From: Candidatus Hydrothermales bacterium | Lineage (GTDB): Bacteria > Hydrothermota > Hydrothermia > Hydrothermales > JAJRUZ01 | NCBI GenBank assembly: GCA_039630575.1 | Contig: JBCNUW010000001.1 | Location: 32,659 to 96,658, forward strand | Direction of reading: 5' to 3' | DNA: 64,000 bases | In this document: positions 18,001 to 30,000 of the stretch, piece by piece | Layout of the letters: each line of letters begins with the position of its first letter | Position numbering within the stretch: the first letter of the stretch is position 1 | Program-made: the position numbers

Positions 18001-21000
18001 AACCCCGTAACTTATTGGAATAAGTTGAAGTAAAGTTAAATATTCTGAAGGTAAAGTTTCACTATGTATTGGTTCAGCCTTATAGGGCATAATTATTGTT
18101 GATATTATATATTTTTGCGGTATTAAAAAGGTTAAAAGAAGAACTAAAAAAGTAGAAAATATAAAGAATTTATAAAATAGTTTTCTCCATTTTAAAAAAA
18201 TTTCAAAAATTATTTTGAATTCCATGGTATTATTATTACATCACCGTCTAAAAGGAATGGGTTTTGTGTAAGATCTCCATTTTTGAAATATTGCTCTATT
18301 TGTATAGTATCAATTTGATTTTCCCTTTTTAAAATAACCTTTTCTACATTTTTTGAGAGTGCCTCTTTTAAAAATTCAGATAGTCTTTTTAAACCATCAG
18401 TGTAATAAATACCTGGTTTTTCTAAGTTTCCCACTACATGAACTTCAATTGGGGCTGTTTCTGTAACAAACACTCTAATTTCTGTTCCTTCGAATTTTTT
18501 CTTTATTATCTCATTTATCTCTTTTTCTACTTCTTTTATTTTTTTACCACTTACTTTAAAAAAACCAAGATTTGGACCACTTATTTCTGAAATTGGGATA
18601 TTTGAAAATTTTAAAGAAGTAGGTGTTGTTATTATCCATATTTCACCAGTGTGTGTGACCTGTTGCATATAAACTTGGTTATAGGTTCCAAAAAAAACTA
18701 TTGTTAAAATATCACCCCTTTTGATCTTGTAATCTTCGCTAACAAGATATGCTTTTGAGTTTGAAATATAGGGAATAAATTTAGATGGAACTTCGTAATA
18801 AATGATCCTCTCAGAGTTTGACAAGATTTGTGTAGCAAAAATTACAAAAAGCATTATTGATTTTAAAATAAAAAACAATATATAATCAAATGAAGTAACC
18901 TTATGAAAAGTATTCCAGAACCTTTAATTTTTAGAAAAAATAAACTTTACATTTTAGATCAAAGAAAAATACCGTTTAAGGAAAAATACTTTGTTGCAAG
19001 TAGTTTCTGTGATGTAAAAGTTGCTATTAAGAATATGATATTAAGAGGAGCCCCCTTAATTGGTATAGCAGGAGCCTATGGAATTTTATTAGGTTTAAGA
19101 AAAAAATTTAATTTAGATAATTTTTATAAGATGAAAGAAAGTCTACTTCTACTCAGAAAGACCCCCTATAATCTAAACTATACACTTTCAATATTAGAAA
19201 GACTAATAAAAAACGGAGCTGGTTATAAAGATCTTGAAAAAGAAGTAGAAAATATCTTTGAACAAGAAAAGATAAGGTGTGAGAGAATAGGTAAAAATGG
19301 ATTCAAAATTTTCAAGGAAAAACAATATAAAAAAATTTTAACTCATTGTAATACAGGGAAATTGGCAACTGGTGGTATAGGTACTGCTCTTGGGGTTATT
19401 TATAAATCAAAAAAGATAATTGAAATGGTTTATGTGACCGAGACAAGACCTTACTTTCAAGGTGCAAGATTAACATCATATGAATTGTTTAAGCTAAATA
19501 TACCGTTTAAAATCATTCTTGACGGAGAAGCATCCTTTTTGATGCAAAAAGGTGAGGTCGATGCTATCATAGTAGGTGCTGATAGAATAACTCAGGATGG
19601 TTATTTAGCAAACAAAGTTGGAACTTTGTCTCTTGCAATTTCAGCAAAAGAGTTTGGTATACCATTTTATGTAGCTTCACCGGTCTCAACAATTGATTTT
19701 AACACAAAGGGAATTGAAAATATTCAGATAGAGGAAAGAAGAGGTGATGAGGTTAAAGGATGGGGTAAGACAAAATGGGTGCTAGAGAACTTTGACGTAA
19801 TTTACTATTCGTTTGACTTAACACCACCATATCTTATAAAAAATATAATAACTGATTATGGTAATTTTAATCCTAATGAGCTAAAAATGGTTCAATTCCA
19901 TGAGGAAAGAAAGGAGTTTACTAATGCCTAACAGACACTACGCTTTTGTTCTAATAAAAGTTCAAGTTGGGAAAGTGCCTTCAGTTGCTCAAAGACTTTA
20001 TAATATAAATGAAGTTAGGGAAATATTTATGGTTACAGGACCTTTTGATGTTCTTGCTATCATTGAGACAGAAAGTTATGAAAGATTAGGAGACATACTT
20101 GCAGAAGAAATTCAAAAAATACCTGGAATAGTTGAAACACAAACATTAATGGCCTTTAGAACCTATAAATACTTAGAAAAATGAGAAAATTTTTTTTAAT
20201 TTTAGTTCTTTTTAATTTTTATCTTTTTGCAACGATCACAAGTTTTACTGTTACCCCATCCAATTTTACAGTTGGGGATTACGTAACTATTTCAATTACA
20301 GCTGATAGAGACGGAGCAATTTCGTTTTTTTTAGCTAACAGTACAAACCTGATTTATCCTAACACTGGTAATATAATAGGAGGCGTTTACCAAGGTTTAC
20401 ATAGAATTTTAAAAGCCGGGATAGACTCAATTTATGTAGCCGGAACCCCAGGAAATGCCTATAGCAATCCCTTTACTTCAAACCCAAAACCCCCAAGTAG
20501 AGTTATCATTTTATTTAACAATCAGCTTCATCTACCTGGTGATAGTATAAACAAGGGGCGAAGTTCAATTTCCTTACCAATTTTTCCTGTAGGAGAGCGT
20601 ATAAAATTTAATGTTAAACTAACTGACATTTTTTATAACGAAAGTCCTTATTCTGATACTTTAAATATAAACATCATCACTGATGACCCATACGCCACAA
20701 TTACTGATTCCGTTTATTTTTTACCAGGAGAAACCACTAAAGATGTAGAAGTTATTTTCAAAAGAGCAACAATTCCTTATCAGTTTTCTCCTAATGATAG
20801 AAGAGTTTTATATGGTCTTGTATCTGTGTCAAATTTTAAGGGAGATACTGCAAGGTATAACATAAATTCGCCTTTCTTTCATGTTAAATCCGGTGATTAC
20901 TCAAAACTTTTGATTCTTGAATACTGGGATTCTTCAGGTGTAATACAAGGAGAAATTTTTGATCCAGGAAATGAAAGTGTTGGAAAGATTTCAAAATTCA

Positions 21001-27000: not shown

Positions 27001-30000
27001 AGGTGCAAGAGAAGTAGCTTTATTAAAGAGGGTAAAGTAATGGAGAATAACAAAGGTGAGTTTGCAAAAATTAACGTAACACCCTTGACAGATGTCGCTT
27101 TTACGTTACTGATTACACTTATGCTTGTTACATCTTATATGGCAGTAAAACAACCGCCTTTCAGAGTAATTTTACCAGATGTAGAAACAGTTGAACCAAG
27201 AGGAGCAGATGTTGTTACTCTTGACTTAGATGAAAAAGGTGAAAATCTTGCAATAAACGGGTATATTATAAAATGGGACAATTATATAAAGGTTTTGAAG
27301 GAGGAAGCGATGAGAGATCCATATAGGTTGCTTCTTATAAGAGCAGACAAAGGAACACCTCATGGTGTTGTTATGAAGGTTCTTTCTGATATAAAGAAAA
27401 TGAATTCGGAATTAATTTTAGAGGATAAAGAAAGCTTTTCAAAAATTGCTTTTGGAACAAGAAAGAAAAGATGAAAGTTTCAACTTCTAAAGCATATGGG
27501 TATATATATAAAACTCCTAAGTATTCAAATTATACAGGGTTTACAGTATCGTTAATAGTTCATGCACTGATTTTATTACTTTTACTTTTAAGACAAAGTG
27601 TTTACAGTGAAGGGACTTCACTATCGGTAACATTATTAGAAGAGGAAATTAAAAAGAGAAAAATAGAGGAAAAGAGAGAAACTGTAAAAAAAGAGGAAGA
27701 AAAAAAACCGGGTCCAGAAGTTAGACATAAACCTAATCTTTTTGCAGCTATACAGAGAACAATAGAACCACCACCACCGATAACAAACATAAATATAAAA
27801 CAAAAAATAGACGTACCAAAAATTGAAATATCAAAGAATTTACCAATTGAACCAGCACCTATTGTTCCTTTAAAGGACATTGAAATTAAGTCTGTTACAG
27901 AAGATATAGGTCCTCAAGCGAAGATAGATATAAAATCTTTAAAAATAGAAGAATCGGGTATCGGATCAGATATAGTTGTTGGACAGGGGGCTCCCACATC
28001 AGAAATTCTCAAAAGACCAGCTTACAAACCGACTGTTGATATATCCAAGCAAGTTGCAGAAAGTGGTTTGGGTCAAGGTGGAATTGCTCAATGGGGTCCA
28101 GGAGGCGGTAGTGGTACTGTTGGGTCTAAAAAAGTTGAATTAAAAGTTAAGATGGAAGAGCCTCCACCTTCTTCTCCTTTACCTTCACCTTCTACTTCTT
28201 TTAAGCCTGAGATTAGAAAAAAAGAGAAAAAAATAGAAGTTGAAATCTCGGGTTCTATAGCAGGAAGAAAGATAATTGCAAAATTTCTGCCTTCTTATCC
28301 CTCCTGGGCAGCAGAGAGGGGAGTTGAAGCTGCTATTACAGTAAAAGTAGAAGTTGAACCGGACGGCACTGTTAGAAAAAATGTATTAGTTATAGGAACA
28401 AGCGGATATCCTAATTGGGACAATATTGTAAAAAATTCTGTCCTGTCTTGGAAATTTGAATCTTTACCAAGTGATATTAAAACAATTCAATCAGGTTATA
28501 TAACTTTTAGATTTATTCTTGAATGATAATTAGATGAAAAGGTTAATAAATTTTTGTCTTTTTTCATTTCTTTTCTTTTTATATTTGCATGCTCAGGAAT
28601 CTCAATCACCTCAGCAAGAAGTTGAAATCAAAGCTAAATATAAGGGAAAGATAGAAGAAAGAAAACCGATATGGAAGTTAACCTTTAATCTCTTTGATGC
28701 TGCCTACGATCAATTTAAAAATAAGGGTTATATTTTCGATCAAAGATTTGGAAAGGGCAGAATAAAACCACCTTTGCCGTCACTAGCCTCTGAGGAGCTT
28801 AGGAAACCTTGGCTTAATAGTATTGTAAGAGGTGAAGTCGGTATATTCTACCCATTTTATGGTCGAGATTTAAAAAAGTGGAAATTAACAATACTGGATG
28901 GAAAAGGTAAAGTTTTTAGAGTTTTTTCAGGAGAAGACGAGCCTCCGACGAAAATAGTCTGGGATGGAAGGAATGAAAAGGGAGAAGTTCTTGATGTGAG
29001 TTTACTATATTTTTATACTGCAGAAGCAGAGGATGAAGCAGGAAACATTTCAAAAACACCAGAAAGACCCATAAAGCTCTCCGGAATACTCTGGCAAGAT
29101 GGTGTAAACTTTATAATATCTGTTGACGGAAATGAAATTTTTGAAGAAAATTCAGATAGAATAAAAAGGGTTGAGCTATTAGAGGAATCTTTAAGTATAA
29201 TAAAAGAAAAAGCTCAAGTTAAAGTAGAAGTAGTTGTTTATGGTCAAAACCCTGAACTAACAAAAAAAAGATATGAAAATGTCTTAAAATACTTAAGAGA
29301 AAATTTAAGAATACCAAAGGGAAAAGTAATTTATATGGAAGGGTATTTTAAAAGAACTGGTTACGAAACTTCAAGGATAGATTTTAAAATCTTATAAGTA
29401 TCTCAAACTTCCTTAAAGTTTAAGATCATTTTCTTCTTAGACATTTTTTAAAATAACAAAACCTCCTATTAGGAGAATCATAAAAACTATTGTTAAAAGG
29501 TTAAAATACTTATCAATAAATTTTTTAATTTTTTCTCCAAAGATTTTGATAAGTAGTGCTATAATAAAGAATCTAGAACTTCTTGAAATTAAAGAGGCTA
29601 AAAGAAAAATAATCACATTTATTTTGAATACACCTGCAGAGATTGTGAAAACTTTATATGGAATAGGAGTAAAACCTGCTGTAAAAATTGCAAAAAATGA
29701 ATTTTTATGATAAAGATCTGAAACTCTTTCAAAAGCGCTAACAGAAAAAACATAAGCAAAGAAAAAGTCCTTTGTAAGTTCCCAAAAATAGAATCCTATT
29801 ATGTAGCCGATTAATCCGCCAAGTACCGAGCAAACAGAGCATAGCAAGGCAAAATATAAGGATCTTTCTCTATTACCAAGACTTAAAGCCATAAGTAACG
29901 GATCAGGTGGTACTGGAAAAAAAATAGATTCAATAGATGAAAAAAAACATAGTGCAAGAGCTCCTTCCTTTTTATAAGCCCAACTTAAAACCCAATCATA

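What a model noticed while it worked through the whole genome (the two positions that open the first line are those of the whole stretch)
20181..29397. Type IX secretion without the PorLM/PorKN motor: a conserved PorV-TPR-ExbBD-TonB-OmpA operon instead
The genome has SprA (C3:35290-40695), five PorV-family barrels and about 48 CTD cargo proteins but no GldK/L/M/N. An eight-gene operon (CTD cargo, PorV with a CTD-like Ig tail, 922-aa TPR protein, ExbB, ExbD, ExbD, TonB, Ig+OmpA-like protein) with no TonB-dependent receptor is conserved across WOR-3, suggesting an ExbBD-TonB-energised T9SS variant.
Evidence so far: SprA matches F. johnsoniae SprA structure E 5e-26; 48 proteins hit a CTD profile, 5 PorV. 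AlphaFold model of the operon's PorV: top Foldseek hits are T9SS PorV chains 8gl6_F, 6h3i_F; last gene folds as FlgD-like Ig + OmpA-like domain, like the PorE anchor. PorV orthologue in 15 of 41 phylum genomes; in 12 of 14 neighbourhoods fetched it is followed by TPR-ExbB-ExbD-TonB, in several classes. No GldM in 13, GldN or GldL in 5 genomes; no FGE-sulfatase/Gld Pfam rows here.
(Added by a program. Inside this text positions count along the whole contig: contig position 32,659 is position 1 of the stretch shown here. "Call 12" and the like, gene names such as g00115 and contig names such as C1 are that model's own, and its searches are not shown. The text may have been shortened before it was handed on; [...] marks where a part breaks off. 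The agent that wrote the report below was given it as the finding of a first reader that could run no searches.)

Follow-up and report, generated by a model that had tools for sequence, protein, structure and literature searches.

The report
TonB motor beside motorless T9SS
Many little-known bacteria have the type IX protein-export pore but not its usual motor, and a conserved eight-gene cluster in many of them encodes a different proton-driven motor that appears to pull, through a long scaffold, on one surface protein and its carrier rather than powering all export.

Summary
The eight genes are real. The genome has SprA, PorV, a PorU-like sortase and 41 CTD matches, and no GldK, L, M or N was found; the GldM and GldL searches now have a positive control. 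The operon reaches beyond WOR-3: it also occurs in records named Krumholzibacteriota, Gemmatimonadales, KSB1, Calditrichaceae, Elusimicrobiota and Firestonebacteria, and 99 of 102 genomes carrying its last gene have a SprA match. New here: the last gene (g8) has a TonB-box-like N-terminus. A complex model threads g8 through the TPR protein and docks TonB on that box (score 0.73, best control 0.00; model only). In one genome the PorV-like barrel is fused to the TPR. So this is not the general replacement for GldLM. Best reading: a TPR-sleeved Ton motor acting on its own carrier-cargo pair, as an accessory of a Gld-less T9SS. Contact with SprA is untested.

The parts
20181..21914 (+). g1: secreted protein, tandem Ig-like stalk with a C-terminal T9SS CTD-like domain, no catalytic domain found; orthologues run from about 180 to 2,000 aa
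   Evidence: FlgD_ig E 3.5e-10 at 497-559 and weak matches to the C-termini of PorU and PorZ; TIGR04183 over cut-off in 2 of 15 orthologues, weaker in 6 more; conserved C-terminal domain; long forms
21908..23173 (+). g2: PorV/FadL-type outer-membrane barrel with a C-terminal FlgD-like Ig tail (paralogue of the g8 Ig); probable dedicated carrier for g1
   Evidence: NF033709 92.8 bits; profile hits PorV 6h3i_F at E 6.6e-15; AlphaFold model pLDDT 84, Foldseek 8gl6_F E 2.9e-10, FadL E 2.8e-7; tail hit by the g8 profile
23170..25938 (+). g3: 922-aa periplasmic TPR superhelix; predicted sleeve for the g8 N-terminal segment (residues 15-557)
   Evidence: TPR Pfams; complex model; polar and aromatic contact positions more conserved, 0.44 vs 0.32; fused to a PorV barrel in L078/L226
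25977..26621 (+). g4: ExbB/TolQ-family motor subunit
   Evidence: PF01618 E 2.3e-29; one of 3 in the genome
26618..27040 (+). g5: ExbD with Ser at the proton-binding Asp position
   Evidence: PF02472; aligned residue S
27040..27474 (+). g6: ExbD with the canonical transmembrane Asp
   Evidence: PF02472; aligned residue D
27471..28526 (+). g7: TonB-like transducer, N-terminal helix with conserved His31, long linker, TonB_C domain
   Evidence: PF03544 E 1.4e-8; H31 at least 90% conserved; residues 273-284 and 342-351 touch g8 in the model
28534..29397 (+). g8: periplasmic adaptor: signal peptide, TonB-box-like motif, extended segment, FlgD-like Ig, degenerate OmpA/MotB-like domain
   Evidence: Model and Foldseek; alignment; the OmpA-like domain keeps the Arg (R246, 34 of 48) but shows no conserved Asp motif
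28612..28650 (+). TonB-box-like motif of g8 (residues 27-39)
   Evidence: Motif in 38 of 86 g8 N-termini vs 4.1 in shuffles (max 11), 0 of 71 TPR, 1 of 42 g2; the regex was written after seeing the g8 sequences. TonB_C contacts this end of g8 in the model
28651..28812 (+). Extended segment of g8 (residues 40-93), disordered alone, predicted to lie in the TPR groove
   Evidence: pLDDT under 50 in the monomer, at least 72 in the complex; I40 and K44 give the lowest-error contacts and are conserved in 38 and 41 of 51

Best explanation
The operon encodes a dedicated Ton-type trans-envelope machine attached to a T9SS that lacks GldKLMN. ExbB with two different ExbD subunits uses the proton gradient to move TonB (family knowledge). 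TonB binds the TonB box at the N-terminus of g8 (motif and model). The next 55 residues of g8 run through the groove of the TPR protein (model). The TPR is tied to the PorV-like barrel g2 (gene order, one fusion). The Ig domain of g8 ends up at the TPR's N-terminal end, near the barrel and its paralogous Ig tail (inferred from model geometry and the fusion point). g1 is exported through SprA and held at the surface by g2, much as SprB is held by SprF (inferred). The motor therefore works on this one carrier-cargo pair: most likely it pulls the loaded carrier out of SprA and then keeps the stalk anchored or under tension. It is an accessory module. The other CTD cargo and the main PorV do not depend on it, at least in lineages that lack it.
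For: Operon order conserved in 22 of 26 WOR-3 g8 loci fetched and in at least five other named lineages. g8-positive genomes have SprA: 69 of 71 and 30 of 31. Complex model: 0.73, best of 3 controls 0.00 (0.00 also when the TPR is replaced); runs agree in at least 94% of contacts; partner pLDDT at least 72; the mark was reached by 116 of 157 solved complexes and 2 of 215 mismatched pairs, counts that hold only roughly for this three-chain job. TonB-box motif enrichment. PorV-TPR fusion of 1,344 aa. Sister operons put a plug-less TonB-receptor-like barrel (PF00593 in 2 of 4 scanned) with a similar box after a related TPR. Cargo-PorV gene pairs recur in this genome. In Bacteroidota the energy step is extraction of the carrier-substrate complex (PMC10994853, passages).
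Against: No direct test of g2-TPR, g2-g8, g1-g2 or any SprA contact. The TonB-box part of the model resembles solved TonB-receptor complexes and may come from memory. TonB with g8 scored 0.00 once the TPR was replaced, so the score rests on the TPR. In many Elusimicrobiota the TPR-ExbB-ExbD-ExbD-TonB-g8 core lies without g1 or g2 beside it, so the target may differ there. g1 does not itself reach the TIGR04183 cut-off. The g8 N-terminal profile matches sister barrels only weakly (best 9.4 bits, 1 of 8). The TPR-Ton sister module occurs in MAGs where SprA was not found (G154, G155).
Confidence: 0.5

Rival explanations
1. General T9SS energiser: where present, the module ejects all carrier-cargo complexes from SprA. 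The TPR plays the part of SprE/PorW and g2 that of a motor-tethered barrel like PorG. Lineages that lost it use the near-universal second Ton motor.
For: Operon implies SprA in 99 of 102 genomes. No GldK/L/M/N found. SprE is a TPR scaffold on SprA (PMC10994853, passages). The wide spread suggests an old module.
Against: 48 of 117 SprA-positive WOR-3 genomes lack g8; 21 of 22 retested with a wider profile stay negative and the other has a partial Ig hit only. Their CTD counts (36-48) equal those of operon-bearing genomes (41, 45). The operon was not next to sprA in the sprA neighbourhoods fetched. The main PorV is encoded elsewhere. g3 matches the SprE model far below its cut-off (98 vs 250 bits).
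Confidence: 0.2
2. Energised importer: g2 works as a FadL-like channel, g1 is its surface capture protein, and g8 is a split-off TonB-box/plug that gates it.
For: The g2 fold is about as close to FadL/TodX as to PorV by TM-score (about 0.5). Sister operons carry TonB-receptor-like barrels in the same place. A second cluster in this genome joins Ton, a receptor, CTD proteins and a PorV.
Against: g1 has no binding or catalytic domain hit and varies tenfold in length. No metabolic genes are conserved around the operon. In the model the g8 segment sits in the TPR; the barrel was not included, so plugging was not tested.
Confidence: 0.15
3. Envelope-tethering or surface-motion machine in the manner of Tol-Pal or the Agl-Glt core complex: the motor cycles the wall-binding domain of g8 or moves the g1 stalk, and the T9SS only delivers g1.
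For: TPR + ExbB + two ExbD + TonB-like protein is the make-up of the Agl-Glt core complex (PMC3169522, passages). g8 has an OmpA/MotB-like domain. g1 looks like an adhesin stalk.
Against: A complete Tol-Pal set lies on C29. The OmpA-like domain is degenerate. Homology to Glt proteins was not tested, and the only hint is a weak myxo_SS_tail match (20 vs 40 bits).
Confidence: 0.1
4. Spare generic Ton system for the four receptors that lack their own motor; the link to PorV is only inherited gene order.
For: Four of the 5 plug-bearing receptors have no adjacent exbBD.
Against: Order kept across phyla, a PorV-TPR fusion, a co-encoded TonB-box client, and a second, more conserved Ton motor in 48 of 50 WOR-3 genomes tested.
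Confidence: 0.05

Closest known systems
Bacteroidota T9SS (SprA/Sov, PorV, PorU, SprE/PorW, GldKLMN/PorKLMN)
   Same: SprA, PorV-family barrels, a full-length PorU-like protein (357 bits here, cut-off 420; over the cut-off in 10 of 18 genomes) and CTD cargo; a periplasmic TPR scaffold is present.
   Different: No GldK/L/M/N found. SprA is shorter (1,801 vs 2,403 aa). A Ton-type motor is linked to one divergent PorV. Present outside Bacteroidota, including Elusimicrobiota.
SprB-SprF and other type B cargo with PorP/SprF carriers
   Same: A stalk-like cargo encoded next to a dedicated carrier barrel that is tied to a periplasmic energy chain (PMC12635249, discussion read; PMC10994853, passages).
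   Different: The carrier is PorV-family with an Ig tail. The link is a TPR and a TonB-box adaptor, not a disulfide to a GldK track.
Ton system (ExbB-ExbD-TonB with TonB-dependent transporters)
   Same: Motor subunits, TonB with conserved His and TonB_C, and a TonB box on the client.
   Different: The client has no barrel or plug domain; the box is presented by a 900-aa TPR; two ExbD genes, only one with the Asp in 42 of 73 loci (1 of the 42 is a gap at a contig end).
Agl-Glt/Nfs core complex (AglRQS, GltG, GltC/D/E)
   Same: TPR proteins, one ExbB-like, two ExbD-like and one TonB-like protein in one cluster (PMC3169522, passages).
   Different: Here the partners are a PorV barrel, CTD cargo and g8; sequence homology to Glt proteins was not tested.
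Tol-Pal and PorE
   Same: TPR and OmpA-like domains beside a TolQR-like motor; force on PorE from a TolA/TonB-like protein has been suggested (PMC12204202, passages and section 8).
   Different: No TolB propeller; g8 shows no lipoprotein cysteine and has a degenerate wall-binding motif; a separate Tol-Pal exists.

Membership tests
T9SS (genome level) | SprA/Sov translocon | tested here: met
   TIGR04189 308 bits; PDB SprA E 4.8e-26; 117 of 121 phylum genomes
T9SS (genome level) | PorV carrier and CTD cargo | tested here: met
   5 PorV_fam at or over cut-off; 41 TIGR04183 matches
T9SS (genome level) | PorU sortase | tested here: inconclusive
   Full-length match of 357 bits, under the 420 cut-off here; over it in 10 of 18 genomes
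T9SS (genome level) | GldL/GldM motor | tested here: not met
   GldM 0 of 121 and 0 of 46, control rings. GldL none in G000, G121, G140; one weak 16.8-bit hit in G006; control rings. Very distant homologues could be missed.
T9SS (genome level) | GldK/GldN hub | tested here: not met
   No FGE-sulfatase domain in this genome, control 3 of 14. GldK over cut-off in 0 of 61; 7 have partial hits of 75-86 bits, and two unrelated control genomes also ring. GldN 0 of 18, without a positive control.
T9SS (genome level) | PorG, PorT, PorE, SprE, SkpA, Plug | not tested
   Not searched genome-wide; g3 scores 98 vs 250 bits on the SprE model
T9SS energy chain | Motor acts on SprA or its loaded carriers | not testable with these tools
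   The one complex job went to TPR-TonB-g8; SprA exceeds the size limit
Ton system | ExbB, ExbD with transmembrane Asp, TonB with His and TonB_C | tested here: met
   (g6 has the Asp, g5 does not)
Ton system | TonB-dependent barrel with plug as client in the operon | tested here: not met
   No such ORF in 20181-29397; the box lies on g8
Tol-Pal | TolB and Pal in the cluster | tested here: not met
   Both lie in a separate cluster on C29
Agl-Glt core complex | Orthology to GltC/D/E/G and AglRQS | not tested
   No reference sequences fetched; resemblance is by domain content only
PorV/PorQ family (g2) | FadL-like barrel matching NF033709 | tested here: met
   92.8 bits vs cut-off 90. Not the PorV orthologue: NF033710 26 bits vs 122 for C12:35606

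The most novel reading that the evidence does not exclude
The SprA-PorV-CTD export core is far older and wider than the Bacteroidota gliding motor. It runs in WOR-3, KSB1, Calditrichota, Gemmatimonadota, Krumholzibacteriota, Elusimicrobiota and Firestonebacteria without GldKLMN, and there Ton motors extract carriers from SprA: this TPR-sleeved module where present, the second Ton motor elsewhere. GldLM would then be a later Bacteroidota replacement, reversing the proposal that the T9SS arose within the gliding machinery (PMC12635249).
Probability: 0.25. Interest if true: 0.9.

Novelty: new variant of a known kind. Interest (0 to 1): 0.72.

Why it matters
Two points stand whichever rival is right. 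First, a T9SS core with dozens of cargo proteins and no detectable Gld motor is the rule in this phylum and extends to Elusimicrobiota, outside the FCB group to which reviews confine the system (PMC11205867, PMC5445135). Since energy is needed to pull carriers out of SprA (PMC10994853), something else must do that or the step is passive. That bears on how the T9SS arose. Second, the operon defines a Ton architecture I did not find described: TonB grips a barrel-less adaptor threaded through a long TPR and linked to a PorV-type barrel. It gives specific, testable residues and pairs.

Tried and rejected
Universal replacement of GldLM: rejected by distribution. Tol-Pal duplicate: rejected, a full set is on C29. 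g2 tail as an export signal: not hit by TIGR04183 and paralogous to the g8 Ig. A distant GldL in this genome: the only phmmer hit (E 0.006) is a PhoU-like helical protein, named from recall; the G006 hit is 16.8 bits in a 724-aa frame. Single-sequence PDB searches with g2 and an Elusimicrobiota SprA found nothing; profiles did. The library-wide g8 search was swamped by multi-Ig proteins, and cluster look-ups gave no taxa. Promoter and terminator scans were at chance level (52 vs 44.4; 7 vs 6.3). Homology of the g8 N-terminal segment to sister barrels is weak. mtnA and the Lrp gene upstream were seen with the operon only in the same genus. Expression data were not examined.
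Full report
1. What is there. The window is C1:32659-96658 of a 1.89-Mb genome, 94.7% complete. Close homologues of its proteins are named WOR-3 or Ca. Hydrothermales by their sources. Eight ORFs on the + strand fill 20181-29397 with gaps of -7 to +38 nt: g1 (577 aa), g2 (421 aa, PorV_fam 92.8 bits), g3 (922-aa TPR), ExbB, ExbD, ExbD, TonB and g8 (287 aa, no family). The g2 model is a barrel plus Ig tail (pLDDT 84) whose best matches are PorV 8gl6_F and 6h3i_F, then FadL proteins at similar TM-score. 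g8 has a disordered stretch at residues 21-91, a FlgD-like Ig and an OmpA/MotB-like domain. The g2 tail and the g8 Ig are paralogues: the g8 profile hits both in most genomes that have it. g1 is an Ig-like stalk ending in a CTD-like domain, about 180 to 2,000 aa in orthologues, with no catalytic hit.

2. The T9SS in this genome. SprA is at C3:35290-40695 (308 bits; E 4.8e-26 to the solved SprA). There are 8 PorV_fam matches, 5 at or over the cut-off, 41 CTD matches and a full-length PorU-like protein (357 bits, cut-off 420). The best PorV stands alone at C12:35606; four others, g2 among them, are encoded directly beside a CTD protein. GldM was not found in 121 phylum genomes or 46 others. The 14 built-in controls include no T9SS-positive genome, so I found viral records with a GldL motif; the GldM search rings on 1 of the 5 tested, at 357 bits, and the GldL search rings there but not in this genome. 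No FGE-sulfatase domain is present here, GldK reaches its cut-off in 0 of 61 genomes, and GldN was found in 0 of 18, without a positive control. These searches would miss very distant homologues.

3. Other motors. The genome has three ExbB/TolQ genes: a Tol-Pal set on C29, an ExbB-ExbD-ExbD-TonB-receptor-CTD-PorV-CTD cluster on C12, and this operon. Five plug-bearing TonB receptors are present.

4. Distribution in the phylum. SprA is in 117 of 121 genomes (95 of 96 high-quality). g8 is in 71 of 121 (57 of 96). I fetched 38 ExbB-centred loci, chosen by hand across families: 26 hold g8, and in 22 of these a PorV gene lies directly before the TPR (one match is only 17 bits); 9 are of the C12 type and 3 are other. 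Of 71 g8-positive genomes 69 have SprA; the two misses are 77% and 88% complete. But 48 SprA-positive genomes lack g8, including whole families (0 of 6, 0 of 14, 0 of 4, 0 of 5). With a wider profile, 21 of 22 stay negative and one shows a partial Ig hit. G006 (100%, 3 contigs), G020, G007 and G084 each have a single ExbB, of the C12 type, and 6-7 PorV_fam matches. G006, G020 and G007 have 48, 44 and 36 CTD matches, against 45 in an operon-bearing relative. The C12-type ExbB was found in 48 of 50 WOR-3 genomes tested. So the T9SS persists without this operon, and the more universal motor is the other one. Kin are not independent, so these are counts, not tests.

5. Beyond the phylum. Many Elusimicrobiota carry TPR-ExbB-ExbD-ExbD-TonB-g8 without g1 or g2. 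In one MAG the PorV barrel is fused to the N-terminus of the TPR (1,344 aa). Of 44 genomes tested, 34 have a SprA match; 30 of the 31 with full-length g8 do (one only as weak fragments), against 4 of 12 without g8, and one genome with a partial g8 has none. The Elusimicrobiota SprA-like ORFs (1,600-2,000 aa) score under the family cut-off, but a profile of 8 such divergent proteins (6 Elusimicrobiota, 1 Firestonebacteria, 1 other MAG) hits the solved SprA at E 1.5e-27 and aligns with FCB SprA over 1,508 columns at 100% probability. A complete Elusimicrobiota chromosome has 19 CTD matches. Record titles were taken as given and some may be wrong. A sister operon, TPR - roughly 500-aa barrel - ExbB - ExbD - TonB, occurs in Firestonebacteria, Omnitrophota, Margulisbacteria and others; 2 of 4 barrels scanned hit PF00593, its TPR is related (362-635 bits in four loci), and SprA was not found in some of these MAGs.

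6. Mechanism. g8 orthologues begin with TonB-box-like motifs, as do the sister barrels. A regular expression written after seeing them matches 38 of 86 g8 N-termini against a mean of 4.1 in shuffles, 0 of 71 TPRs and 1 of 42 g2 proteins. The box consensus is from my own knowledge, and the expression matched only 1 of the genome's 5 receptors, so this evidence is modest alone. I folded TPR 14-840, TonB 256-351 and g8 24-96 together. The model supports binding without showing it: score 0.73, best of three controls 0.00, contacts agreeing in at least 94%, partner pLDDT at least 72; the mark was reached by 116 of 157 solved and 2 of 215 mismatched pairs, roughly applicable here. g8 residues 40-93 lie along TPR residues 15-557, antiparallel, with the conserved I40 and K44 in the lowest-error contacts. 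TonB residues 273-284 and 342-351 touch g8; the output does not pair residues for this interface, and I infer that they meet the box end (27-39). Replacing the TPR dropped the score to 0.00, so the TPR carries the result; the TonB-box part may echo solved structures. Polar and aromatic TPR contact positions are more conserved than others (0.44 vs 0.32). The geometry puts the box towards the middle of the TPR and the Ig of g8 at its N-terminal end, where the fusion places the barrel. Only one ExbD keeps the Asp in 42 of 73 loci, this one included; both do in 30. Shown: gene content, order, folds, distribution. Modelled: TonB-g8-TPR. Inferred: TPR-g2 binding, g1 on g2, export of g1 through SprA, and the job done by the force.

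7. Comparison with what is known. In F. johnsoniae the motor extracts carrier-substrate complexes from SprA, and SprE is a TPR scaffold on SprA (PMC10994853, passages). PMC12635249 (passages, and part 1 of 2 of the discussion) proposes that the T9SS evolved within the Bacteroidota gliding machinery. 10.1101/031039 and PMC5445135 (passages) restrict the T9SS to Bacteroidetes, PMC11205867 (passages) to the FCB group. PMC6851124 (passages) reports CTD signals and an ExbB/ExbD/TonB cluster in Fibrobacter, read there as an importer. PMC3169522 (passages) describes a TPR-ExbB-ExbD-ExbD-TonB core of unknown function. PMC12204202 (passages, section 8) describes other TPR-linked motors and suggests TonB-like force on PorE. 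PMC7323717 gave no passage for my terms. I recall that some non-Bacteroidetes FCB members were noted to have sprA without gld genes; I did not see this in a paper here. Nine searches listed no paper on this operon or on a T9SS in WOR-3 or Elusimicrobiota; I judged most from the listing only, the library lacks most subscription journals, and supplements were not read.

8. Verdict. The observation mostly holds and reaches further than reported. The reading that the operon replaces GldLM is too strong. The best-supported account is an accessory, TPR-sleeved Ton motor working on its own PorV carrier and stalk protein within a Gld-less T9SS (0.5); a general energiser remains possible (0.2). New variant of known kinds; interest 0.72.

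Noticed in passing
G000 C12:124397-136426 (L236); same cluster in L014, L016, L035, L048, L208-L209: A second, more conserved ExbB-ExbD-ExbD-TonB motor followed by a TonB receptor, CTD proteins and a PorV. Its ExbB is in 48 of 50 WOR-3 genomes tested and is the only ExbB in several operon-less ones, so it is a rival candidate for T9SS energisation; in one genus it lies about 15-21 kb from sprA.
   Followed up: partly
L172-L194 (viral contigs); L183 and L188:5935-7971: 23 viral contigs carry a GldL N-terminal motif in 110-190-aa ORFs among phage-like genes; two have a short gldL followed by a 530-aa GldM-like gene (scored at 357 bits in one).
   Followed up: no
L195:7973, L196:6184, L197:5380, L203:5213, L211:7359, L212:2245, L199:5645: Divergent SprA homologues in Elusimicrobiota and Firestonebacteria, under the TIGR04189 cut-off, in three cases with a CTD-bearing metallopeptidase-like gene nearby.
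   Followed up: partly
L057, L089, L094, L116, L082, L121, L125: Sister operon: long TPR, plug-less TonB-receptor-like barrel with an N-terminal box, ExbB, ExbD, TonB. It recalls a TPR plus receptor-like gene pair of Bacteroidota (from memory, not tested).
   Followed up: partly
L076:4476-7622, L092:12539-15823, L225:3-2200: In some genomes a protein with up to eight FlgD-like Ig repeats and an OmpA domain sits in the operon where g2 would be.
   Followed up: no
L036, L037, L038, L033: In some WOR-3 families the operon has two ExbB-like genes, one of about 360-370 aa.
   Followed up: no
window 14025-20184: Upstream genes: tamB-like, a Wzz/Wzc-like and a Wza-like gene on the - strand, then mtnA and a short Lrp/AsnC gene overlapping g1; seen with the operon only in the same genus.
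   Followed up: partly
G000 C1:126185-128302 (outside the window): A 705-aa protein ending in a TonB_C domain, with no exbBD beside it.
   Followed up: no
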